Under the pieces are notes generated by a model. It had not been told where the DNA came from, made no database searches, and saw nothing but the letters and a program-made list of their open reading frames with translations. A stretch of DNA of 64,000 bases, from the IMG/VR virus record IMGVR_UViG_3300031949_000001, positions 32,001 through 96,000 of that record; one strand, given 5' to 3'. A program made the position numbers and the translations under genes. Of this stretch, positions 2,523 to 52,624 are shown piece by piece. The first letter of the stretch is position 1; each line of letters begins with the position of its first letter. Origin of the DNA: a virus. Taxonomy: Duplodnaviria; Heunggongvirae; Uroviricota; Caudoviricetes.

Positions 2523-3461
2523 ATGAGACATTTGATTGGGTTTTTCTGTTTTCTTTTATCGCTGGCAGCTAATGCCGATGCGGTGGACGAGCTAATGGAA
2601 CCGTATTTGATTATTGATATTCCACAATGCTGCGACATTAGCCAGCAGGAAAGATTTGATATCACAGATTTTATTTCTCCTTCTCATCCTTACAACTTTA
2701 CATCGGTCAGACTTAAAGCGGCTAATGTTCTTGTGATAGACCAAGAAACCGGAGAAATTCTCTTCTCAAAAAAAGCAGATGAAATCGTTTCTATCGCTTC
2801 AGTCACCAAACTTATGACTGCTATGGTTGTATTGGACGCTGATCTTTCTATGGACGAAATAATAACAATCACTCGGGCAGATGTTAATTGGCTAAAAAGA
2901 ACCCGTTCTCGTCTTCAAGAAGGAACAAAGCTCTCTCGTGCTGCAATAATGCGCTTGGCACTTATGAGTTCTGATAATCGCGCCGCTCATGCTCTTGCGC
3001 GAACTTATCCGGCAGGCTTCAAAGCGTTCATTATTGCTATGAATGATAAGGCACAAAACCTGGGAATGATGAACAGTGAGTTCTTCGATCCAACAGGTTT
3101 GACTCCTAAGAATACAAGCACGGCGCGTGATCTTGCTATAATGGTTGGAGCGGCTTATGGCTATGATGAAATCCGAGAGTTTAGTACAACTGAGCGTTAC
3201 ACGATAAAGCTCTCTAAGAAGCGTAACGCACGTCCTACACGGTTCATGAATTCGAACGCATTGATCCATACTCACCAATGGAAAATTGGTTTGAGTAAGA
3301 CGGGCTATATTTCGGATGCTGGTAGGTGTGTTGTTATGCAAGCACAAATTTCAGATCGTCCGGTTATCATTATTTTAATGGATAGCCTGACAAAAAGAAC
3401 TCGCGTGAAAGATGCCAATGCTTTAAAAGCTTGGTTGCAAACTATTTTGGAAGGAATTTAA
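2523..3461 (+). CDS. pbpG: D-alanyl-D-alanine endopeptidase, PBP7-like (peptidase S11)
   Basis: signal peptide; SVTK (SxxK), SDN and KTG motifs; DPTGL. Confidence 0.85.
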   Translation: MRHLIGFFCFLLSLAANADAVDELMEPYLIIDIPQCCDISQQERFDITDFISPSHPYNFTSVRLKAANVLVIDQETGEILFSKKADEIVSIASVTKLMTAMVVLDADLSMDEIITITRADVNWLKRTRSRLQEGTKLSRAAIMRLALMSSDNRAAHALARTYPAGFKAFIIAMNDKAQNLGMMNSEFFDPTGLTPKNTSTARDLAIMVGAAYGYDEIREFSTTERYTIKLSKKRNARPTRFMNSNALIHTHQWKIGLSKTGYISDAGRCVVMQAQISDRPVIIILMDSLTKRTRVKDANALKAWLQTILEGI

Positions 3462-12053: not shown

Positions 12054-12184
12054 GCCGAGATAGTGTAATGGCTGCACGCTAAAACTATCTCTAAGAAATT
12101 TTCTCAGCGAAAGCTGAAGTGGAATTTAGGGTTACTTCTATCATAAGGAAGAAGTGGAGTGTTCGAATCCTCCTCTCGGCACCA
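12054..12184 (+). ncRNA. tRNA(CAT)-like RNA with ~55-nt hairpin between D-arm and anticodon arm
   Basis: GCCGAGA/TCTCGGC-ACCA; CTTCT-ATCATAA-GGAAG. Confidence 0.65.
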
Positions 12185-16394: not shown

Positions 16395-16489
16395 GCTAGG
16401 TTGGCCTATTGGTTGGGCTCCGGCTTTATAATCCGGCGATGCGTCCAGATGGGGCGATGAAGAGAGTTCGATTCTCTCACCTAGTACCA
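16395..16489 (+). tRNA. tRNA-Ile(TAT) with long variable arm
   Basis: CCGG-C-TTTATAA-T-CCGG; ~25-nt V-arm; ACCA. Confidence 0.75.
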
Positions 16490-18517: not shown

Positions 18518-19657
18518 ATGATAGAGTTTATTGGTGGTCGTAATTATTTTTACGATTTTAATAAGATTGTAGAAAAAGCTACTACCGAGTACTCTGGTCC
18601 TACGCTCTATCTAAGTGAATCCGGCATCGAACAAAAGATTCGTATGTTCAAAGATGCTCTGCCGTCTATCAAACCACACTATGCCGTTAAGGCTAACCCA
18701 AGCATTCGCGTTCTGGAAATTCTGGAACGGGAACATTGTAATTTTGAAGTTGCTTCTTATGAAGAATTTAAAATTCTCCAACAAATGGGTGTTGGTGTGG
18801 ATCGAATCCTTTACAGCAATCCAATCAAACCAGCCTGGATGATGCGCCAGCTCGATATGGAACACGTCGGCTGTTTCGTGGCTGATAACCTCAATGAAAT
18901 TAAGAGAATTGTTGCTGTTAACAGCAACATCGCCATTTATTTGCGTATGCATTTAGGAGATGACGCCTCAGGAAGTGTCATACCTCTTTCTGGAAAATTT
19001 GGTGCATCACCGGTCAATATCGCCGATATTATTAAATATTGCGGTTCTAATCGTGTTAATCTTTGTGGATTGGGCTTCCATGTCGGCTCTCAATGTCTTG
19101 ATCCGTTAAGCTGGAGAGATGGAATCCAAACAGCCAAGCATTACTTTGATGTGATGAAAGAAGAAGGGTTGACACCTTACTTCTTAAATATCGGTGGTGG
19201 TTTTCCTGTGTATTACAAGCAGACTCTAGGAAACACGTTCAGAAACATAACGAGCACTATCAACAAAGAAATAGCCGGAATGGATGAATATCGTATTGTC
19301 GCCGAACCGGGTCGATTCCTGGTGGCTGACTGTGGCGTTTTTGTTGCTCAAGTCATCAACGTGACCGTTCGAAATGGTATGAATTGGGCGTATCTTGATG
19401 CTGGGTTGTTTAATGGTCTATTCGAAATCCATGAAGGTATTGAGTATGAAATCCGTTCGAATGCATCTGGTGAACGCAGAATGTGGACATTAGCCGGTCC
19501 GACATGTGATTCGTTTGATATTATTACCAAAAAAGCTAACCTACCTACCAATCTAAAAGAAGGCGATTTCCTTTATTTTATGAACGGTGGCGCTTACACA
19601 ACCGCCTATGCAACGACCTTCAATGGTTTTCCGCTACCACAAGTTGAATTTCTATAA
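18518..19657 (+). CDS. ornithine/lysine decarboxylase (PLP fold III)
   Basis: YAVKAN, KFG, HVGSQ, IGGGFP, EPGRF, GPTCDSFD, GAYT. Confidence 0.9.
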   Translation: MIEFIGGRNYFYDFNKIVEKATTEYSGPTLYLSESGIEQKIRMFKDALPSIKPHYAVKANPSIRVLEILEREHCNFEVASYEEFKILQQMGVGVDRILYSNPIKPAWMMRQLDMEHVGCFVADNLNEIKRIVAVNSNIAIYLRMHLGDDASGSVIPLSGKFGASPVNIADIIKYCGSNRVNLCGLGFHVGSQCLDPLSWRDGIQTAKHYFDVMKEEGLTPYFLNIGGGFPVYYKQTLGNTFRNITSTINKEIAGMDEYRIVAEPGRFLVADCGVFVAQVINVTVRNGMNWAYLDAGLFNGLFEIHEGIEYEIRSNASGERRMWTLAGPTCDSFDIITKKANLPTNLKEGDFLYFMNGGAYTTAYATTFNGFPLPQVEFL

Positions 19658-28372: not shown

Positions 28373-28469
28373 GGGACAATAGTTCAAAAGTAGAACGGTA
28401 ATCTCGGCGTTCATAGACGTGTGATATTAGTCCAGACAGATACGGGTGAGAGTCCTGTTTGTTCCACCA
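28373..28469 (+). ncRNA. tRNA-like RNA with elongated anticodon arm (TCATAG loop)
   Basis: GGGACAA/TTGTTCC-ACCA; D- and T-arms present. Confidence 0.6.
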
Positions 28470-30367: not shown

Positions 30368-30460
30368 TCCACGGTACTCTAATGGTAATGAGGACGCACT
30401 GTTAATGCGTTGCAATCCGTCTTGAACGGTATGGAGGTTCGAGTCCTCCCTGTGGAGCCA
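30368..30460 (+). tRNA. tRNA-Asn(GTT) with long variable arm
   Basis: ACGCA-CTGTTAA-TGCGT; U1-A72, G73; ~22-nt V-arm. Confidence 0.8.
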
Positions 30461-32421
30461 AAGCACACTAAAGAGAGCATGGTTCAATTCCATGCCAATG
30501 ACCATAAGCCTACGGGTAGCTGGTAGGAAGCATATTGGTGGATGCGACTTAGTGTAAGAATAATGCCGGAACACTACCGGTATGTAGGTATATGGATTCG
30601 GCGCCGAGATCTAAGTACTGAAAAACAAATTGTGGGCGGTTTCTGGTTCCCTCCCAGCCCAAAACCAGAACAATTTAATAAGGAGATACAATGAAAAACG
30701 TAGTTTATACTGAAAAAGAATGGATCAAAAGATGGAATGAGCTTGTTTTAAGTTCCAGTGAAATATTCTATCCAGCAGTAGTAGACGCCCCCGAAAAAAT
30801 GGAAGGTGCAATGTTCGTTGGAAATGTGGATCAAAAGACCAACATATTTGTTAAAAAATAGCATGAATGGAGAAGATAATGATATCAGGTAAAGAGTGGG
30901 ATGATGTAAACACGTTGTTATCTTTTTTGCGGTCTTCAAATGTTGTGAATCTTGTTGATGAATACTACAAGCAATACAACAACGAGGCTCCTGCCATGTT
31001 ACTATCTGATCAGATGGCGATAGTTCAGCGTGATTTGAATGCTGGAAGTAGAAATTAAATGGAAGAAATTAAAGTAGGTGATGCGTTTTTGGATTGTTGT
31101 TACCGTCCAGTGAGATGCACAACGATTGATGAAGAAGAGATTGAAGGTATTTCAATACTCGATGGAACTGAATGTTCTTGCAGCATAGCATATTGTGTAG
31201 TCAGTAAGATTAACGAGGAAGAAGTTCTGGCAACAGTAGCAGCTTTCGAAAAGGATGGAGAACGAGGTTTGATGCGACTTCGTGGTTGGACCGAAGAAAG
31301 CATTGACAACTTTATGAAGGAATGGCGCTAATGGCAACAATTAAACAACGTATTCCAAATTGGGCAGATATACCAGCGAAAACCTCAGAGTTTAACTCTT
31401 TGGAAGAATTGCTAAAAATAGATTTTGTGGAGCATTTCAAAGGTCTAAATAATTTTTATAGATATAGTATATCCAAAGAAGTTTATCAATTTCATAAATC
31501 ATCTTTCTTGATGTGTGAATTGGACGAAGGAAAAAAGTGGTGGGTGGTCGGTTTTCTTGATGATGCCGACGAATTGGTTTTGAAGCTTCCTAAATGGGAG
31601 CCAATTAACGAACAGGAGAGTAAAATGACATAGGTACCAGAGCAATTTGAAGACGCAATTATCGTGATTCACTACAACAAGGCTCATAATCAGGATCAAA
31701 ACATCCCGCCTTGGGTGGTGAAAGTGAAAGGTGAAAGCTACTATGTGTGGCACTTCACTGTGGAACCGGGAGTTGGATTTTCGTCTAAGGAAACACCGGC
31801 TAATCCCCACACTAAAGCATCTCTCAAATTTAAAGGGAATCTACGCTTTGAAGAAAATGAAGGTAAGTTAGAGGCGGTGATTTATGATGGGAAAACTGAA
31901 GGAAATCATCCTTCATGGTTGAATAAGGAAAAGAAATGACATTAGATAATGTAATGTGGATTGTATCGGCTTTGTACATAGGCGGATTGGTATTAATGCT
32001 ATACACGAAGCGGGGTCGTAGAATACTTAATAGATTAATTATTAAAGACGAGAAAGAGGGTTAATATGGAACTATTGTATGATGGAACGCTGAATAGACT
32101 TACGATTGAAAGCGTAAAAACCAGTATGGCAACTAACTCTTGTCCAGTAGAAGTTGATGTTGAAACTAATAAGTTTTGGGAAGCGTTTCAACCGTTTAGC
32201 AAGACAATCATGCGTCAGATTCGAGAAGTTTTGGAATACGGTGATGGTAGTCCTCGTATCTATAATGGTCCGAGTTATATAACATCACACAAGAATGATG
32301 AAGAAACAGTTTATTTTATTTTCTTTCGATTTGAAAGTGATAGGGATGCTTTTAAGGAACATTTCAAGCATCTGAAAATGAATTGTTCGCCGTTCAAAAC
32401 GGTGATTAAATAAGAGACAAT

Positions 32422-32687
32422 TCTGTTGTAGTTTAGAGGAAAGGAATTAGTAGTTAGTTGTCAAGATCAGGATATACATTGTTGAGCGAAATATTGGTAA
32501 CATCGCATTGGGCTTCCCAAAAAAACGTTGAGCCAGGGGTGGCGCCTGGACAGACCAGTATAGTACCAATAGACTTTTGAGACCTGTGAGCGACTAGCGA
32601 AGAACCGAGTACGTGGAAGAACACTGGCACCCAGCACAATGCGATTAGAGCCAGCGACGGTGTGTTCGAAGCCACCCAACAGAGCCA
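32422..32687 (+). ncRNA. 266-nt tRNA-framed structured RNA
   Basis: TCTGTTG/CAACAGA-GCCA acceptor; T-arm; ~180-nt D-loop insert; 21-nt anticodon loop. Confidence 0.7.
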
Positions 32688-32700
32688 ATTTGGAGGTAGT

Positions 32701-33210
32701 ATGGAAAATAATAAAAAATATCATTTGTTTTGGAACGGACCATTTAGTAACTGGTACCCATCCAATATCATAGTTGAAGGGGTTGCGTACAACTGCACCG
32801 AGCAACATATGATGGCTGAAAAAGCAAAGATGTTCGGTGATAAGGAAATGTATCAACGAATAATGATGTCCAACAGTCCAGCCGATCAAAAGGCGTATGG
32901 AAAGAAGGTTAAGGACTTTAATAAGATCGTATGGGAGACTTCTGCTAGAGATATTGTCTACAAAGGCAATCTATGTAAGTTTACCCAACATGCTGACCTC
33001 AAGGAATATATCCTCGGAACTGGTGACGACGTGATTGTAGAAGCCAGCCCATATGACGTGATTTGGGGAATTGGTCTTTATGAAACTGATAAACGTTGTT
33101 TAGATCCGAAGCAATGGAAGGGATTGAACTGGTTGGGTGAAGTGCTCATGCGCGTGCGTGATTGGATTAAAAAAGAACAAAATGGAGAAATAATAAATGT
33201 TAACAGTTGA
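32701..33210 (+). CDS. NADAR family protein (YbiA/DUF1768-like)
   Basis: FSNWY, EQHMMAEKA, KFTQH, EASPYDVIWGIG, GLNWLG. Confidence 0.9.
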   Translation: MENNKKYHLFWNGPFSNWYPSNIIVEGVAYNCTEQHMMAEKAKMFGDKEMYQRIMMSNSPADQKAYGKKVKDFNKIVWETSARDIVYKGNLCKFTQHADLKEYILGTGDDVIVEASPYDVIWGIGLYETDKRCLDPKQWKGLNWLGEVLMRVRDWIKKEQNGEIINVNS

Positions 33211-39342: not shown

Positions 39343-39637
39343 TTGGTTAGCCAGATGATCGCTGTGAGAGTAATCTCATAGAAGAAAGTCGGGACTGCAC
39401 TGGCACAGCTTAGGAGTTAATGGCTCCCCACGGTAACGTGAGTGACGGCAACAGAGACGAGTCCGCATAAATAACATTTATGTGGGGTGAAACGGGCGAC
39501 AGCGTAGGTGCAGCAACTATAGACAGGGGGTGTTGATAGTGCCAGGGAGCCTCCGGGTAATAGGCAAAGATTTTAATGGCGACATTGAAACGAGACGAAT
39601 GATCATCCTCGATAGAATCCCGCTTACGTCTAACCAA
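39343..39637 (+). ncRNA. rnpB: RNase P RNA (bacterial type, compact)
   Basis: P1 TTGGTTAG/CTAACCAA; GAAGAAAGTCGGGAC and ATAGAATCCCGCTTA form P4; ACAGAGA and GTGAAACG conserved segments. Confidence 0.9.
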
Positions 39638-40054
39638 AAGGATTTTAAATGAAACTAAGAGAATTAGAAGAAGCAAAAGACCAAATGGCTTTGATTGTCG
39701 ATTGGATAGCTCAGCGTATCGTTCGAGAAGCTCAACAAGAAGCAGCCGTTGCTCAAGAAGTTAAAGGTATCGCTGCTGATAGTGCTATGCTTCATAAAGA
39801 AGCAAAAATGAAGTTGAAAGATTTGATGGATCGGGTTGATACTGAGATATATCACCTTATCTTCAAATGAGAGAATGTTGGGTCTGCTCCGAGCCCATTT
39901 TTGAATGTATGGGATTTGTAGCAGCCGGTGATTTGAATGATTTTTTGGAAGGTAAACGAACGTCGGTTCGTGAAACTTGTGGTGGTTGTATTTTACGTTG
40001 TATGTATGCGGAAGAGATGGGTTTACCCCGACCATTTCCGTATCCAAATGAAAT

Positions 40055-40186: not shown

Positions 40187-41230
40187 ATGCTTTTCAATAT
40201 CTGTCTTTTCGGCTACGGTCTAATTGGTCGCACAATCAACGCATATCTACGCGATCTTCATATCTACAATGTCGATGTCTTCGATAAAAATAAAGTCAAT
40301 TTAAACAAGAAAGGTAAGCCGATAAATCTTGATAATGCGGACGATGTAACCAAGCTACTTAGGGATTACGATGCGGTAATTGCTGCAACACCATATCAAG
40401 TAAACGAATTTATTGCTCATTGTGCTGGTGTTGCTGGTATACCATACTTCGATTTAACTGAAGATGTTGCCACCACAAAAGCCATCACAGCTATGCGAAT
40501 CGATTACGGTTCTACTTTCATTCCTCAATGTGGTCTAGCTCCAGGAGCTATTGGTATTATCACTCGTGACCTTATAAGAGGTTTCGAGGAAATCGATGAA
40601 ATCAAGATGCGGGTAGGAGCGCTTCCAATCACAACCAGCAACCAAATGAAGTATTATCTCTCATGGTCGTCTGAGGGTTTAGTGAATGAATATTATGAGC
40701 CGTGCCCAGCCATCATAAACGGGCGCTACGAGCTTTTAGACCCGCTGGAAGGTTACGAGACATTGTTGCTCGATGGCTGCGAATACGAGGCATTTAACAC
40801 GTCCGGAGGCATTGGTGAATGGGCTAATGATATTCGAATCGCTGGTCCAATTAAGAAGTTGACATACAAAACTATCCGTTACAAAGGACACCGCGATCAA
40901 ATTCTATTCCTGAAAGAAGACTTGGGTCTTTCTAAAGAGAGAATGACTGACATTTTCAATGCTCAGGTTCCGCACAATGAAAATGATGTAGTTCTGATCT
41001 TTTCCGAGGTTATCGGTAGAAACGATGGGACACGCATCCGCAAGAGCTATTTCAAAAAGATTTACGGTGATAAAGGTATTTCTGCTATTCAGAAGACAAC
41101 TGCTGCCGGCATCGTATCGGTGGTTCAGAATTTCTTTAGCTTAAGGAACTCAAAACGAGCCTTTGAATCCAATGAGGGATTGGATTACACGGATTTCATT
41201 ACAAACAAATACGGAGCAATCTTCGCCTAA
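40187..41230 (+). CDS. saccharopine dehydrogenase/lysine 6-dehydrogenase-family oxidoreductase
   Basis: GYGLIG Rossmann motif, YFDLTED, CGLAPG, WS.EGL.NEY, YKTIRYKGH. Confidence 0.85.
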   Translation: MLFNICLFGYGLIGRTINAYLRDLHIYNVDVFDKNKVNLNKKGKPINLDNADDVTKLLRDYDAVIAATPYQVNEFIAHCAGVAGIPYFDLTEDVATTKAITAMRIDYGSTFIPQCGLAPGAIGIITRDLIRGFEEIDEIKMRVGALPITTSNQMKYYLSWSSEGLVNEYYEPCPAIINGRYELLDPLEGYETLLLDGCEYEAFNTSGGIGEWANDIRIAGPIKKLTYKTIRYKGHRDQILFLKEDLGLSKERMTDIFNAQVPHNENDVVLIFSEVIGRNDGTRIRKSYFKKIYGDKGISAIQKTTAAGIVSVVQNFFSLRNSKRAFESNEGLDYTDFITNKYGAIFA

Positions 41231-48182: not shown

Positions 48183-50318
48183 ATGAATGTAGCAAAACTA
48201 CTGACGAGAGAGGAATTTCGAACTAAAGTTTTCGAAAGGGACCACTATCGCTGTGTATTTTGTAAGGCTGACGCTGTTGATGCCCATCATATTATGGAAC
48301 GGCGCCTGTGGGATGATGGAGGATACTATCTTGAGAATGGCGCCTCGGTCTGTACACCATGTCACATTCTTTGTGAAAAGACCTATTATTCGACTGCTGA
48401 TGTAAGGAAGGCTACTGGGATCACTCGTATCCTGCTTCCGGATCATTTCTATGATGACCAGGAGTTCGATAAGTGGGGTAATCCGGTTATGCCGAATGGT
48501 CAGCGTCTTCGTGGAGAGCTTTTTTATGACGGAAGCGTTCAGAAAATCATGGCTGATTACCTACATTTGTTTACGAAGTATATCAAATATCCACGCACAT
48601 TTCACTTACCATGGTCAGATGGAATGCACGATGATGATAGAATGATGCCAGATGTTAAGATTTTTGAAGGTAAGCGAGTTATTGTAATGGAGAAGATGGA
48701 TGGGGAATGTTTGTTAGCGTCCACAAAAATAACTATGAGTGATTTTAGTAAAATTAACATACGTGATATTTATAAAAATAAAATTATAGGACAGCATGTA
48801 TTGGGAGTAAATCAACGAGGTGAAATAGTTCCATCCAAAATATTGAATGTATTTTTTAATGGAGTCACTGAGGAATGGTTAAGTGTGAATGTTAAGGGGC
48901 AACATGGACCATATGTTAAAATAATTTGCACTCCAAATCATAAATTCAATGTTAATGACAATTATATTGAAGCCAAAAATATGAAGGGTGGTGATATGGT
49001 AAAAATAATTGATTATTCTCCTGATTTAACTTCAATACAAGAACAAATTTTATTAGGAATGTTGTTGGGAGACGCATCTATTCATAATGTAAAAGATCAT
49101 GGTTGTAAAAATGTCAATAAAATGGTAATTCAATTTAGCCACAAAAAAGAACATTTAGAATATATTGAATGGATTAATAAGAGACTTGGTGATATCGCTC
49201 GCCAGTATTGTTTTTGTACCTCAGGTTTTGGTTCTACAATGATTAAATGTTGGACGGCTTCTTCAAATTCTATCTTTAATTCTTTTAATTCGATGATAGT
49301 GAATGGTAAGAAAATCGTCCCGAATTGGGTTATTGAAAAAATAACACCATTATCATTAGCATTTTGGTATATGGATGATGGAAATTTACTACATAATTTC
49401 AAACAACGCGATAGAGCACAGTTCTCAGTCTGTGGATTTGACCGAGAAAGTTGTCTTGTTTTACAACAATGTCTTGAAAAGTTTGGTATTAATTCAGTAT
49501 TGGAAGAATATAAAAATTATTTATATTTACGTTTATTTACAAACGATTCAGAAAGATTTTTTGAATTAATTTCACCACATATTCCACCGTGTATGCAGTA
49601 TAAATTACCAGAGAAACTTAGAGGCAAAGAACTGACTATACCAAAAGTTGAACATAATATTTCTGTTCCTAGATTACGTGAAGTGGAGGTTAAATCGGTT
49701 GAAAAATATTTACATAACACTAATCGTGGAAAATATGATATAGAAACTGAAACACATAATTATTTTGCTAATGGAGTATTAGTTCATAATTGCACCACCA
49801 TGTACAATGATTACATCCATGCGCGTAGTATTGATTCTGGTTCTCATGGTTCAAGAAATTGGATCAAGGCATTCCATGGACAAATGTGTAATAATATTCC
49901 AGATGATTGGCGGATCAACGTCGAAAACGTTTATGCCAAGCATTCGATTTTTTACAAAAACTTACCGACTTATGCTTATGGTTTTGCTCTCTGGAATGAA
50001 AAGAACTATCTTCTGGATTGGATGACCTCACTGGAATGGTTTGAACTCCTTGGAATAACTCCATGTCCGTGGTTCTATTGGGACACATATGACAGAAAAA
50101 AGATTCATTCTTTATATGAGGAACTTTCCAAGGATCACGAAACCGAAGGTTATGTAATCAGAGTTGACGAACCGTTTCATTATGGTCAATTCCGAACACA
50201 CGTTGGAAAATTCGTGAGAAAGGGTCATATTCAAACTACAAAACATTGGGCGTATGGTCAGAAAATTGAACCAAACATATTAAAAGAAGGAGTTACGGGA
50301 TTTGAGGCTCTATTGTAA
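48183..50318 (+). CDS. HNH domain-RNA ligase fusion containing an intein
   Basis: N-terminal CVFC..DAHHI...CTPCH; KYPRTFHLPWS...EKMDGE|C; EGYVIR, KFVR. Confidence 0.85.
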   Translation: MNVAKLLTREEFRTKVFERDHYRCVFCKADAVDAHHIMERRLWDDGGYYLENGASVCTPCHILCEKTYYSTADVRKATGITRILLPDHFYDDQEFDKWGNPVMPNGQRLRGELFYDGSVQKIMADYLHLFTKYIKYPRTFHLPWSDGMHDDDRMMPDVKIFEGKRVIVMEKMDGECLLASTKITMSDFSKINIRDIYKNKIIGQHVLGVNQRGEIVPSKILNVFFNGVTEEWLSVNVKGQHGPYVKIICTPNHKFNVNDNYIEAKNMKGGDMVKIIDYSPDLTSIQEQILLGMLLGDASIHNVKDHGCKNVNKMVIQFSHKKEHLEYIEWINKRLGDIARQYCFCTSGFGSTMIKCWTASSNSIFNSFNSMIVNGKKIVPNWVIEKITPLSLAFWYMDDGNLLHNFKQRDRAQFSVCGFDRESCLVLQQCLEKFGINSVLEEYKNYLYLRLFTNDSERFFELISPHIPPCMQYKLPEKLRGKELTIPKVEHNISVPRLREVEVKSVEKYLHNTNRGKYDIETETHNYFANGVLVHNCTTMYNDYIHARSIDSGSHGSRNWIKAFHGQMCNNIPDDWRINVENVYAKHSIFYKNLPTYAYGFALWNEKNYLLDWMTSLEWFELLGITPCPWFYWDTYDRKKIHSLYEELSKDHETEGYVIRVDEPFHYGQFRTHVGKFVRKGHIQTTKHWAYGQKIEPNILKEGVTGFEALL
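48708..49790 (+). mobile_element. intein with LAGLIDADG endonuclease
   Basis: starts CLLAST; CTPNHKF; LGMLLGDA and WYMDDG; ends VLVHN followed by Cys+1; lower GC. Confidence 0.9.
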
Positions 50319-50926: not shown

Positions 50927-51385
50927 TAAGGTTGAAACTGACTCTTCTAAATACCGCCAGTTAGTTTAGGAGATAAAGAAATGGAAAAATTGGTTGAAAC
51001 CTGGGATGAGATGTTACCAACTCTCAATTCATACGATATGACCGATGCGGATAAGATTTCTCTAGCGGAAATTCTTATCCAGATGTTGGAAAATAGTGGT
51101 GCCGATGATTGGGAAAGTCTAGTTGATGATCCTATTCTTTACGAAGCAGCCCGCAACTTACACCCTGATTTCGATTGGGATAATGACGAGGAAGATGTAG
51201 ATGACGAGGATTAATAATGTACTACTGTTATTGTATAAAATGGATTGAATACCAAAAAATCGAACAACGCGAACGTTCTTATCTTTTTGTACATGGATTT
51301 CTTTACACCGGACCTACCTTCAAGTTCTGCCCGTTTTGTGGTAGTGAATTAGAAAACGATGACCCATCAGCAGGAGGATTCGAAA

Positions 51386-52624
51386 ATGAGAATTCTTGAC
51401 GATATAAAACTAGACTATCAAGATGTATTGTTCGTTCCGCAACGCGCAGACTTTGATTTAGATAGTCGATCCAAGATCAAACTTACCCGTCCTTTCAAGT
51501 TCAAATACGGTACTCCCCAATACGAAGGAACTCCGATTATCGCCGCCAACATGGATTCGGTTGGGACAATGGCAATGGCAAATGCTTTCAAGCCATATAA
51601 CATGGCTGTAGCTCTTCATAAATTTTATTCTGCTGATGATCTTATTAAATATTTCAAAAGAGAAGACAAAAATCCCCACACTTTCTACTCAATGGGAATC
51701 TCGGATGATGACCGAGCAAAGTTCGACAAGGTCATGTCCTACGCACCCCTCGAATACGTCTGCATTGACGTAGCCAATGGTTACTCACCGAAGCTTTCAG
51801 TATTCGTTCAAAAACTTCGCGAGGAATACCCTCAGTTGGTCATTATGGCTGGCAACGTTGTAACTGGTGATATGGTACATGAACTGCTCTTGAAGGGCGC
51901 AGATATCGTTAAAATAGGTCTTGGGAGCGGCTCTGTTTGTACCACAAGGCTCCTGACAGGTGTGGGATATGCACAATTCAGTGCAGTGATTGAATGCGCA
52001 AATGCAGCCCATGGATTAGAAAATGGATTGATTTGTGCCGATGGTGGAATAGTTGATCCAGGTGATGTTTCAAAAGCTTTTGGCGCTGGAGCAGATTTCA
52101 TTATGTGTGGCGGTATTTTCGCTGGTTATGCTGAGTGTGAAGGTGAATTGGTTGGTGAAGAATTACCACCAGAGGCTTTCGATTTCGACACGGGCATTTC
52201 GGTAGATCCAAAAACGTTTGAAGAATATTTTTATTTAAAACGAGCCTTAAGAGAATTTAAGACAAAAGGAACTCTCGGGTTTCAAACAGTAACCTTCTCT
52301 AAAGATAGGCAAACAATCATCAAGAAAACACCAACGCCGCTTAGTTTTTTCAAAGACCCGACAAATCTAAAAATGAAATTTCATGGAATGTCTTCCAAAG
52401 AAGCTATGGAGCAGCATTATGGTGAGAAGGCAGACTATCGCGCAGCGGAAGGGAAAGAAGTTGAAATTCCGTTTAAGGGTCCGGTTAAGAATATGATTGA
52501 ACAGATTCTTGGTGGTATTCGAAGCACTTGCACCTATATTGGCGCTCGTCAACTCAAACACATGTCTAAGTGTGCTTTATTTGCTAGGGTCAGCCGTCAA
52601 TACAATACTGTGTTTGGTTCTTAA
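51386..52624 (+). CDS. guaC: GMP reductase
   Basis: PIIAANMD, IDVANGY, GSGSVCTTR, DGG, GMSS, AEGK, STCTY. Confidence 0.9.
   Translation: MRILDDIKLDYQDVLFVPQRADFDLDSRSKIKLTRPFKFKYGTPQYEGTPIIAANMDSVGTMAMANAFKPYNMAVALHKFYSADDLIKYFKREDKNPHTFYSMGISDDDRAKFDKVMSYAPLEYVCIDVANGYSPKLSVFVQKLREEYPQLVIMAGNVVTGDMVHELLLKGADIVKIGLGSGSVCTTRLLTGVGYAQFSAVIECANAAHGLENGLICADGGIVDPGDVSKAFGAGADFIMCGGIFAGYAECEGELVGEELPPEAFDFDTGISVDPKTFEEYFYLKRALREFKTKGTLGFQTVTFSKDRQTIIKKTPTPLSFFKDPTNLKMKFHGMSSKEAMEQHYGEKADYRAAEGKEVEIPFKGPVKNMIEQILGGIRSTCTYIGARQLKHMSKCALFARVSRQYNTVFGS

What the first reader, a model, noticed from the sequence alone, without database searches (positions are those of the whole stretch)
32422..32687. 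266-nt RNA with a tRNA frame whose enlarged anticodon loop pairs with a giant D-loop insertion
Seen: acceptor stem TCTGTTG/CAACAGA plus G-CCA, a T-arm with GTTCGAA, and a D-stem GTTT/GAAC enclosing ~180 nt. The insert has helices ATTGGTA/TACCAAT, GGCTT/GAGCC and CCAGG/CCTGG. The anticodon stem CTGGC/GCCAG has a 21-nt loop containing CAATGCGAT, which is perfectly complementary to ATCGCATTG in the insert (a pseudoknot). It lacks the G3-U70 pair of tmRNA and I see no group I core. Inference: a new tRNA-mimic class, possibly a decoy, an aminoacylated scaffold or a processing-dependent tRNA.
Basis: partly seen in the sequence, partly recalled or inferred. Interest (0 to 1): 0.8.

Follow-up and report, generated by a model that had tools for sequence, protein, structure and literature searches.

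The report
Phage tRNA-shaped RNA with giant D-loop domain
A 379-kb jumbo phage carries, among its ~55 tRNA genes, a conserved 266-base RNA built on a tRNA frame: a 184-base folded domain sits in the D-loop and base-pairs with an oversized anticodon loop, so it is probably a non-decoding tRNA look-alike of a kind not yet described.

Summary
Window 32422-32687 (+) has a 7-bp acceptor stem, G73-CCA, a T arm (GUUCGAA loop, one bulged U), a 4-bp D stem around 184 nt, and a 5-bp anticodon-like stem with a 21-nt loop. That loop pairs with the insert.

A homolog of about 66% identity (L009) was found upstream of the orthologous NADAR gene. Of 30 pairs predicted from the window alone, 29 form there. 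Nine carry compensatory double changes and none a single-sided change; slid controls give 8-15 of 30.

In a closer relative (L008) the insert is 98.4% identical, while flanking genes are 68-91% identical. This indicates strong selection on the RNA.

Rfam (E up to 10) and ARAGORN find no family. No tmRNA, group I or Y RNA features are met. No single excision yields a shared anticodon with U33.

Only three lineages of one phage group carry it.

Best reading: a tRNA-processed, non-decoding tRNA mimic whose D-loop domain locks its own anticodon loop. The nearest precedent is the unexplained T4 tRNA-cluster RNA rnaC. Its function is inferred, not shown.

The scan noted this same stretch before, and no other DNA.

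The parts
32422..32428 (+). Acceptor stem, 5' strand (UCUGUUG); preceded by AAU at -3..-1
   Evidence: Pairs with 32677-32683. There are 2 compensatory changes in L009 and 1 double plus 2 G-U changes in L008. 47 of 56 phage tRNAs have T at -1.
32431..32434 (+). D stem, 5' strand (GUUU)
   Evidence: Pairs with 32619-32622 (GAAC). L009 has GUGU/GCAC, one compensatory change.
32435..32618 (+). 184-nt domain inserted in the D-loop. Its conserved blocks are UAGAGGAAAG, UGAGCGAA, UGAGCCAGGG, CUGGACAG, UAGUACCAA, UGAGCGA..AGCGAA and GAGUACGUGGAAG
   Evidence: 98.4% identical between the window and L008, where flanking genes are 68-91% identical. Blocks of 9-13 invariant nt are shared with L009. D-loop-like RGGAA(A)G occurs at both borders, so the exact insertion point is ambiguous.
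32491..32498 (+). Tentative helix Px, 5' strand (pairs with 32554-32561)
Evidence: An 8-bp helix sits at the same place in L009 (71-78/127-134) with a different sequence. 59 of 5000 shuffles give such a helix there.
32502..32514 (+). Pseudoknot, insert strand (AUCGCAUUG + GCU)
   Evidence: 9 bp plus 3 bp with 32633-32645. L009 has 8 bp plus 4 bp, with 2 compensatory changes in the shared 8 bp.
32533..32549 (+). Hairpin CCAGG-GGUGGCG-CCUGG inside the insert
   Evidence: Conserved as CCAG-GGAAGGG-CUGG in L009. The stem is invariant, so there is no covariation.
32554..32561 (+). Tentative helix Px, 3' strand
   Evidence: See 32491-32498.
32619..32622 (+). D stem, 3' strand (GAAC), preceded by the D-loop-like GUGGAA
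   Evidence: The D arm resembles that of the phage tRNA-Gln at 37333 (GTTT-AACGGAA-GAAC-A).
32624..32654 (+). Anticodon-like arm: 5-bp stem (32624-32628 / 32650-32654) with a 21-nt loop (32629-32649). Loop positions 32633-32645 form the pseudoknot
   Evidence: The stem is CUGGC/GCCAG here and GAGGC/GCCUC in L009 (2 compensatory changes). The loop is 21 nt in both lineages.
32659..32676 (+). T arm GGUG-U-G UUCGAAG CCACC, with a bulged U
   Evidence: L009 has GCCG-U-G UUCGAGA CCGGC (2 compensatory changes, bulged U kept). Two other odd tRNA-like genes of this phage share this T arm.
32677..32687 (+). Acceptor stem 3' strand (CAACAGA), discriminator G, encoded CCA
   Evidence: 53 of 56 phage tRNAs end in an encoded CCA. 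The NADAR Shine-Dalgarno GGAGG starts 5 nt downstream.

Best explanation
This is the gene for a stable, non-decoding, tRNA-shaped RNA of a XacN1-like jumbo phage.

Proposed mechanism:
- It is transcribed with the neighbouring small ORFs and tRNAs of the + strand tRNA island.
- It is cut out like a tRNA. The 7-bp acceptor stem stacked on the T arm, U at -1 and the encoded G-CCA make it an RNase P and 3'-end processing substrate (inferred).
- It folds into a tRNA L-shape. A 184-nt domain grows out of the D-loop, runs back along the D/anticodon arm and closes on the enlarged anticodon loop with a 12-13-bp pseudoknot (shown by covariation).
- With the loop sequestered and no conserved anticodon, it cannot read codons (inferred from sequence).
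- It would act through its tRNA-like acceptor/T/elbow surface together with the very conserved insert. It could be a mimic, decoy or adaptor for a tRNA-binding factor of host or phage: a processing or modifying enzyme, a defence nuclease or transferase acting on tRNA ends, or an RNP partner.

The T4 tRNA-cluster RNAs rnaC and rnaD are presumed to be of this kind, though nobody has shown what they do. Which factor this RNA engages is not known.
For: Structure:
- 29 of 30 pairs predicted from the window form in L009, with 9 double compensatory changes and none single-sided. Slid controls give 8-15 of 30.
- The loop is 21 nt in both lineages, and the pseudoknot extends to 12-13 bp in both.

Selection:
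- Between the window and L008 the RNA is 96.2% identical and the insert 98.4%. NADAR is 90.8%, the upstream ORF 67.5% and downstream DNA 73.8%.
- 4 of the 9 substitutions lie in the acceptor stem and all keep pairing.

Genomic setting:
- It sits in a tRNA island of a phage with about 55 tRNAs and its own RNase P RNA.
- The 5' context AAU|U and the encoded CCA match the phage's tRNAs: 47 of 56 have T at -1 and 53 of 56 end in CCA.
- Gene callers placed no gene in the homologous gaps.

Not a known family:
- Rfam is silent at E up to 10.
- ARAGORN is silent for tRNA and tmRNA.

Precedent:
- T4 rnaC (139 nt, in the tRNA cluster) has an acceptor-like stem stacked on a T arm, an extra domain and no 7-nt anticodon loop. 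Its function is unknown.
- XacN1 has unannotated tRNA-framed RNAs of 109 and 125 nt.
- Two other odd tRNA-like genes of this phage share the bulged-U T arm.
Against: - No expression, end-mapping or binding data.
- Only three lineages are known (window/L064, L008, L009), so most of the insert's fold is unresolved.
- The MFE is not better than shuffles (z = +0.89).
- The 4-nt linkers on either side of a 12-13-bp loop helix are short, so perhaps only the 8-9-bp core forms.
- D-loop-like RGGAA(A)G at both borders of the insert would allow a clean excision that restores a normal D arm. This keeps a splicing model alive.
- The phage encodes a Ro60 ortholog, so a Y-RNA-type role cannot be excluded.
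Confidence: 0.55

Rival explanations
1. It is the precursor of a working tRNA. The D-loop domain and 14 nt of the anticodon loop are introns, and their mutual pairing brings the splice sites together. They are removed by self-splicing or by an unknown enzyme, leaving a ~76-nt tRNA.
For: The flanks form a complete tRNA frame with covariation. RGGAA(A)G at both borders of the insert (RNA 15-22 and 193-198, in both lineages) would let excision restore a canonical GUUU-AGAGGAA-GAAC D arm. The phage encodes an RNA ligase.
Against: No same-position excision of the 21-nt loop gives the same anticodon in the window and L009 (for example UUA vs UUU, CUA vs CUU, CCA vs CCU), and none gives U33 (read). 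No group I or other ribozyme model matches at E up to 10. Known bacterial tRNA introns sit in the anticodon loop, not the D-loop (own knowledge). There is no EndA or RtcB in the phage. The insert is more conserved than the exon-like frame.
Confidence: 0.12
2. It is a Y-RNA-like partner of the phage's Ro60 (Rsr) ortholog. The tRNA-like module would tether an effector, and AGCGAA-type motifs in the insert would bind Ro.
For: A 540-aa TROVE-domain ORF exists in the phage. Bacterial Y RNAs (YrlA) mimic tRNA, and one is cut by RNase P and receives CCA (PMC4201824). The insert has conserved AGCGAA(N)G, which resembles the reported Ro-contact motif GNCGAAN0-1G.
Against: The motif does not fit: every copy has A where G is required (read). 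In Y RNAs the 5' and 3' ends form the Ro-binding stem, whereas here they form the acceptor stem. YrlA genes lie within 4 kb of rsr on the same strand; this RNA is about 256 kb away on the other strand. Better candidates lie directly upstream of rsr: a T arm, a promoter, a terminator and three repeated hairpins. There is no Rfam Y RNA match.
Confidence: 0.08
3. It is chiefly a cis-acting processing or regulatory element for the downstream NADAR mRNA. A tRNA-like punctuation mark would be cut by RNase P or 3' processing to set the 5' end and translation of NADAR.
For: The RNA lies immediately upstream of the NADAR ortholog in all three lineages. In the window and L008 the CCA end is 5 nt from the NADAR Shine-Dalgarno.
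Against: A plain tRNA or a hairpin would suffice for punctuation, which does not explain a 184-nt domain at 98.4% identity or a covarying pseudoknot. In L009 the NADAR start is about 50 nt further away. NADAR orthologs at 58-60% identity have no such RNA upstream.
Confidence: 0.1
4. It is a divergent tmRNA-like ribosome-rescue RNA.
For: It has a tRNA-like acceptor/T module plus a large pseudoknotted domain. Some large phages are reported to carry tmRNA (own knowledge).
Against: ARAGORN and Rfam tmRNA models are silent. There is no G3-U70: position 3:70 is U-A, or U-G in L008. No reading frame is conserved between the window and L009. It has D and anticodon-like stems that tmRNA lacks. The phage has no SmpB gene.
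Confidence: 0.02

Closest known systems
Bacteriophage T4 species 1 RNA (rnaC) and species 2 RNA (rnaD), stable RNAs of the T4 tRNA cluster
   Same: Both are encoded among phage tRNA genes of a T4-type myovirus. rnaC has a 7-bp acceptor-like terminal stem stacked directly on a GGUUCGAAUCC T arm, an extra ~60-nt domain where the D arm would be, and a hairpin without a 7-nt anticodon loop. It is expressed and stable, and its function is unknown (PMC9697503, PMC3014915). It is not in Rfam.
   Different: No detectable sequence or model similarity. rnaC is 139 nt, has no encoded CCA, no D stem and no pseudoknot to the anticodon-like loop. The present RNA keeps a full cloverleaf frame and carries a 184-nt domain inside the D-loop.
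Bacterial and phage Y RNAs of the YrlA type (partners of Ro60/Rsr)
   Same: Both are non-coding RNAs that mimic tRNA with T and D arms. One YrlA is cut by RNase P and receives CCA (PMC4201824). This phage encodes a Ro60 ortholog.
   Different: In YrlA the tRNA-like module is permuted: the ends form the Ro-binding stem and the acceptor is closed. YrlA is 80-150 nt and lies next to rsr. Here the ends form the acceptor, the Ro motif is not met, and the gene is about 256 kb from rsr.
tmRNA
   Same: A tRNA-like acceptor/T domain is joined to a large pseudoknotted domain, and the 3' end is CCA.
   Different: There is no G3-U70, no tag reading frame and no model match. The extra domain leaves from the D-loop rather than from the anticodon-stem position, and an anticodon-like arm is present.
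Bacterial tRNA genes interrupted by group I introns
   Same: A tRNA frame is interrupted by about 200 nt of conserved structured RNA that pairs with the anticodon-loop region.
   Different: Here the insertion is in the D-loop, with a second 14-nt expansion in the anticodon loop. There is no group I core or model match, and no conserved anticodon after excision.
T-box Stem I and the RNase P S-domain bound to tRNA ('molecular rulers', PMC4919913)
   Same: It works like these only in geometry. An RNA domain spans the distance between the tRNA elbow/D region and the anticodon and pairs with the anticodon loop.
   Different: In those cases the contact is in trans, uses 3 bp at the anticodon and senses charging. 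Here it is in cis and uses 12-13 bp. There is no T-box model match. This is a resemblance, not membership.

Membership tests
canonical tRNA | 7-bp acceptor stem, discriminator, CCA end | tested here: met
   Pairs 1-7/256-262, then G263 and an encoded CCA. Covariation in L009 and L008.
canonical tRNA | T arm with GTTCRA loop, and D stem with a GG-bearing loop | tested here: met
   The T arm covaries but has a bulged U. The D stem covaries, and GG is present at both borders of the insert.
canonical tRNA | 7-nt anticodon loop with U33 and an anticodon; recognised by tRNA models | tested here: not met
   The loop is 21 nt in both lineages and is mostly paired to the insert. ARAGORN makes no call (with or without introns) and the Rfam tRNA model does not match.
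tmRNA | G3-U70 alanine identity pair | tested here: not met
   3:70 is U-A in the window and L009, and U-G in L008.
tmRNA | Tag reading frame with resume codon; tmRNA model match | tested here: not met
   No frame is conserved between the window and L009 (read). ARAGORN and Rfam tmRNA models are silent.
group I intron in a tRNA gene | Group I catalytic core (P3-P9) detectable by covariance model | tested here: not met
   No Rfam intron family matches at E up to 10 with permissive filters on 411 nt.
group I intron in a tRNA gene | Excision restores a functional tRNA with a conserved anticodon | tested here: not met
   The D arm could be restored. But no same-position excision of the 21-nt loop gives the same anticodon, or U33, in the window and L009 (read).
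protein-spliced (archaeal-type) tRNA intron | Splicing endonuclease and ligase available | tested here: not met
   PF01974 (EndA) and PF01139 (RtcB) are absent from the 379-kb phage record. Host genes are unknown.
Y RNA / YrlA | Ro-contact motif GNCGAAN0-1G in a stem formed by the 5' and 3' ends | tested here: not met
   All copies read AGCGAA (A instead of G), and the ends form an acceptor stem (motif taken from PMC4201824).
Y RNA / YrlA | Gene within about 4 kb of rsr on the same strand | tested here: not met
   rsr is at about 319.6-321.2 kb on the minus strand. The RNA is at 64.4 kb on the plus strand.
T4 rnaC-type tRNA-cluster stable RNA | Located in a phage tRNA cluster; terminal acceptor-like stem stacked on a T arm; extra domain; no 7-nt anticodon loop | tested here: met
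   for this RNA; for rnaC.
T4 rnaC-type tRNA-cluster stable RNA | Sequence or model homology to rnaC | tested here: not met
   Model R1 finds nothing in the T4 tRNA region. The shared GAGGAAA after the acceptor stem is too short to count.
T4 rnaC-type tRNA-cluster stable RNA | Accumulates as a stable processed RNA during infection | not testable with these tools

The most novel reading that the evidence does not exclude
This would be a new class of phage RNA: a tRNA that carries within its own D-loop a folded ~180-nt domain that clamps its anticodon loop. That amounts to a tRNA and a tRNA-binding 'ruler' RNA joined in one molecule. Such a molecule could be a locked tRNA that a factor opens. 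Or the extremely conserved domain could be a ligand-binding or catalytic RNA that uses the tRNA body for processing, stability and delivery to tRNA-binding machinery.
Probability: 0.2. Interest if true: 0.85.

Novelty: new variant of a known kind. Interest (0 to 1): 0.62.

Why it matters
Large phages are now known to use their tRNAs in conflicts with host defences that cut or modify tRNA. The tRNA-like 'extra' RNAs of T4 have stayed unexplained for fifty years.

This RNA is a large, clearly selected example with a defined architecture: a full cloverleaf, a D-loop domain and a covarying pseudoknot onto the anticodon loop. That architecture makes concrete experiments possible, including processing by RNase P, probing of the lock and pull-downs of partners.

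Cultured relatives such as XacN1 also carry unannotated tRNA-framed RNAs. The theme could therefore be studied in a laboratory system.

If the insert proves to be a binding or catalytic module, this would be a natural counterpart of the engineered 'tRNA scaffold' and a new kind of tRNA mimicry.

Tried and rejected
Family searches:
- Rfam at gathering threshold on the whole window and at E up to 10 on 32350-32760 gave only a chance snoRNA match.
- ARAGORN, with and without introns, made no call on the window, the genome, L008 or L009.

Searches for more homologs that found nothing new:
- blastn against 50,697 phage records.
- Exact 3' end in IMG/VR.
- GAGTACGTGGAAGNAC in IMG/VR: 39 hits, all chance.
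- A two-block pattern in JGI metagenomes: only L064, which is the same phage.
- A pattern scan of GTDB genomes: 2 chance hits.
- A third pattern in IMG/VR.
- Covariance model R1 on XacN1, Xoo-sp13, CM1, RsoM2USA and Phosso: only a tandem tRNA-Asn pair.
- R1 on four IMG/VR relatives.
- R1 on the phage's own genome: no paralog.

Other dead ends:
- The upstream ORF is an ORFan.
- NADAR orthologs at 60% identity or less lack the RNA.
- The contig of the 70%-identical NADAR (P0003) has no DNA on hand.

Readings considered and rejected:
- RNAalifold on three sequences gave an unreliable interior fold.
- The tRNA species from which the frame derives is ambiguous: Asn-like in the window, not in L009.
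- RNase P CR-I (GAGGAAAG) and T-box Stem I resemblances rest on short purine motifs only, with no model match.
- TRAP- or CsrA-type repeat binding sites are not conserved in L009.
- The minus-strand 140-aa ORF over the region overlaps the real NADAR gene and is not called in the homologs.
- The XacN1 125-nt RNA is not a homolog: 6 bits, T arm only.

Full report
**Where it lies.** The window is bases 32001-96000 of a 378,912-bp IMG/VR virus record judged 94% complete. Its large terminase is 48% identical to that of Xanthomonas jumbo phage XacN1. It is more distantly related to Xoo-sp13, CM1/RAS14, RsoM2USA, Phosso and PA5oct. ARAGORN finds 39 tRNAs in the window and 56-58 in the genome, and Rfam finds a class A RNase P RNA at 39343-39641. 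Nearly all tRNAs are on the + strand between small ORFs. 53 of 56 end in an encoded CCA and 47 of 56 have T at -1. The finding fills the gap between an ORFan (32066-32413) and a NADAR-domain gene (32701-33210; Pfam 6.8e-49). It starts 9 nt after the stop codon and ends 5 nt before the NADAR Shine-Dalgarno.

**The observation.** Numbering the RNA from 32422:
- Acceptor stem 1-7/256-262, then G263 and CCA.
- U8 A9.
- D stem 10-13/198-201, around 184 nt.
- A202.
- 5-bp stem 203-207/229-233 with a 21-nt loop.
- 4-nt variable region.
- T arm 238-255, with loop UUCGAAG and one bulged U (U242).
- AUCGCAUUG (81-89) is complementary to CAAUGCGAT-type loop positions 216-224, and pairing resumes at 91-93/212-214.

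Rfam finds nothing even at E up to 10. ARAGORN finds nothing with or without introns. The MFE is no better than shuffles (z = +0.89). The sequence alone would therefore not prove anything.

**Homologs.** Sequence searches of phage records, IMG/VR, JGI metagenomes and GTDB genomes found only the same phage again (L064). The way in was the neighbouring gene. NADAR orthologs at 95% (L008, an NCBI assembly contig) and 66% identity (L009, a 2-kb Logan contig) both have an uncalled gap upstream that holds the RNA. L009 is syntenic further on, with a small ORF, tRNA-Gln and tRNA-Asp. A covariance model of the 3' 162 nt scores L009 at 58.7 bits (E 5e-14). It finds no copy in five cultured relatives, four IMG/VR relatives or elsewhere in this genome. 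The family as known is three lineages of one phage group.

**Test of the structure.** I took the 30 pairs that can be read from the window alone: acceptor 7, D 4, anticodon-like 5, T 5 and pseudoknot 9. I mapped them to L009 by the conserved blocks that flank them, not by pairing.
- 29 pair in L009.
- 20 are unchanged, 9 are changed on both sides and still pair, none is changed on one side, and one (the ninth pseudoknot pair) is broken.
- Beyond that pair both RNAs go on pairing in slightly different registers, giving 12-13 bp in each.
- Sliding the 3' partners by 1-3 nt gives 8-15 of 30.
- The bulged U in the T stem and the 21-nt loop length are kept.
- L008 differs from the window at 9 positions and one deletion. 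Four of these lie in the acceptor stem and all keep pairing.

Inside the insert, the CCAGG hairpin is conserved without variation. GGCTT/GAGCC overlaps the hairpin and is not conserved. An 8-bp helix (70-77/133-140 in the window, 71-78/127-134 in L009) is kept in place with a different sequence. It arises in about 1% of shuffles, before correction for roughly 8 candidate helices. The rest of the insert cannot be solved with two divergent sequences.

**Selection.** The window and L008 are 90.8% identical in NADAR, 67.5% in the upstream ORF and 73.8% downstream. They are 96.2% identical in the RNA and 98.4% in the 184-nt insert. Such conservation of sequence, beyond what pairing needs, argues for a functional RNA and against a disrupted pseudogene or a passive spacer.

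**What it is not.**
- tmRNA: there is no G3-U70, no conserved frame, no model match and no phage SmpB.
- Group I intron: there is no model match, and the insertion is in the D-loop.
- Protein-spliced intron: the phage has no EndA or RtcB.
- A decoding tRNA after excision: the D arm could be restored cleanly, because RGGAA(A)G stands at both borders of the insert. But cutting the 21-nt loop back to 7 nt at any one position gives different anticodons in the two lineages and never U33 (read).
- Y RNA: the phage does encode a Ro60 ortholog, and bacterial Y RNAs mimic tRNA (PMC4201824). However, the Ro-contact motif is not met, the ends form an acceptor stem rather than the Ro stem, the gene is about 256 kb from rsr, and better Y RNA candidates lie right upstream of rsr.

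**What it most likely is.** It is a tRNA-processed, non-decoding tRNA mimic.
- Shown: the cloverleaf frame, the long-range pseudoknot, the strong constraint on the insert and the tRNA-like genomic punctuation.
- Inferred: excision by RNase P and 3' processing, an L-shape whose D-loop domain reaches back to the anticodon loop, inability to decode, and action through tRNA-binding machinery or a dedicated partner.

The nearest precedent is T4 rnaC. This 139-nt stable RNA of the T4 tRNA cluster has an acceptor-like stem stacked on a T arm, an extra domain in the D region and no 7-nt anticodon loop. Its role is still unknown. It is not in Rfam either and is not detectably homologous.

The theme seems wider in this phage group:
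- Two other odd tRNA-like genes here share the bulged-U T arm. One is at window 12054-12184 (131 nt). The other is an 89-nt tRNA-Met-like gene.
- XacN1 holds unannotated tRNA-framed RNAs of 109 and 125 nt.
- Earlier first-stage notes on this genome list more such elements; I did not check those outside the window.

**Verdict.** The feature is real, selected and structurally unusual, and no described family fits it. Its function is unknown and its distribution is narrow. I rate it a new variant of a known kind (phage tRNA-cluster tRNA-like RNAs), with interest 0.62. There is about a one-in-five chance that the D-loop domain is a binding, switching or catalytic module, which would make it a new class.

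Noticed in passing
window 39343-39641 (+): Phage-encoded bacterial class A RNase P RNA. It is compact (299 nt) and scores 142 bits, E 1e-43, covering the full model. I did not search for an RnpA protein gene.
   Followed up: partly
window 12054-12184 (+): A 131-nt tRNA-like gene. It has acceptor GCCGAGA/TCTCGGC plus ACCA, a normal D arm, about 55 nt inserted between the D and anticodon arms (including a GAAA-capped hairpin) and a CAU-containing loop. Its T arm has the same bulged U as the finding (GGAG-U-G UUCGAAU CCUCC). ARAGORN does not call it.
   Followed up: partly
G000:C1:301034-301122 (-), outside the window: An 89-nt tRNA-Met(CAU)-like gene with a long variable arm and the same bulged-U T arm (GGCG-U-G UUCGAAA CCGUC).
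   Followed up: partly
window 16395-16489, 30368-30460, 28373-28466: tRNA-Ile(UAU) and tRNA-Asn(GUU) have class-II-like long variable arms (95 and 93 nt). A 94-nt Rfam tRNA match is not called by ARAGORN. L008 has the same long-armed tRNA-Asn.
   Followed up: no
L008:2618-2721 and L009:about 520-624, directly upstream of the RNA; absent from the window and L064: A conserved ~100-nt structured element. It has a GNRA-capped hairpin with 2 compensatory changes, an invariant CCAC-CUAGA-GUGG hairpin, a (C/U)CUAAG receptor-like motif and an outer stem. There is no Rfam match, and IMG/VR and this phage hold no copy.
   Followed up: partly
G000:C1:about 319563-321185 (-) = L103:841-2463:-, and L103:about 2560-2870:-: A Ro60/Rsr ortholog (TROVE domain, 540 aa). 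Just upstream lie a promoter-like site, an RNA with a T arm (GAUGGG-UUCAAAU-CCCAUC) and a terminator. There are also three copies of a hairpin GAAGUGG-N7-9-UACUUC. These are candidate phage Y RNAs.
   Followed up: partly
L103:3033-3121:- (G000:C1:about 321755-321843): An 89-nt tRNA-Sec/Ser-like gene with a long variable arm. It scores 32 bits against the tRNA-Sec model, below the cut-off, and ARAGORN does not call it.
   Followed up: no
window 48183-50318 (+): An RNA ligase gene interrupted by an intein with a LAGLIDADG endonuclease domain (Pfam RNA_ligase, Intein_splicing, LAGLIDADG_2).
   Followed up: no
G000:C1:268404-268479 (-): An amber-suppressor-type tRNA with anticodon CUA. XacN1 has two such tRNAs (PMC5852040).
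   Followed up: no
XacN1 AP018399.1 30282-30390 and 36856-36980 (L106:10682-10790, L106:17256-17380): Two unannotated tRNA-framed RNAs in the cultured relative XacN1. The first is 109 nt, with normal D and T arms and a branched anticodon region. The second is 125 nt, with U1-A72, G73-CCA, a T arm and no canonical D or anticodon arm. Neither is detectably homologous to the finding.
   Followed up: partly
window 32606-32613 versus 32661-32668: The invariant block CGAGUACG (RNA 185-192) can pair, with 3 G-U pairs, to UGUGUUCG of the T arm (RNA 240-247) in both the window and L009. This alternative pairing would compete with the T stem. UGAGCG motifs at RNA 62 and 166 could do the same more weakly. 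It may be chance.
   Followed up: no
window 18518-19657, 40187-41230, 51359-52624, 2523-3461: Auxiliary metabolic genes: a PLP-dependent ornithine/arginine decarboxylase, a saccharopine-dehydrogenase-like enzyme (polyamine synthesis), IMP dehydrogenase/GMP reductase and a D-Ala-D-Ala carboxypeptidase.
   Followed up: no
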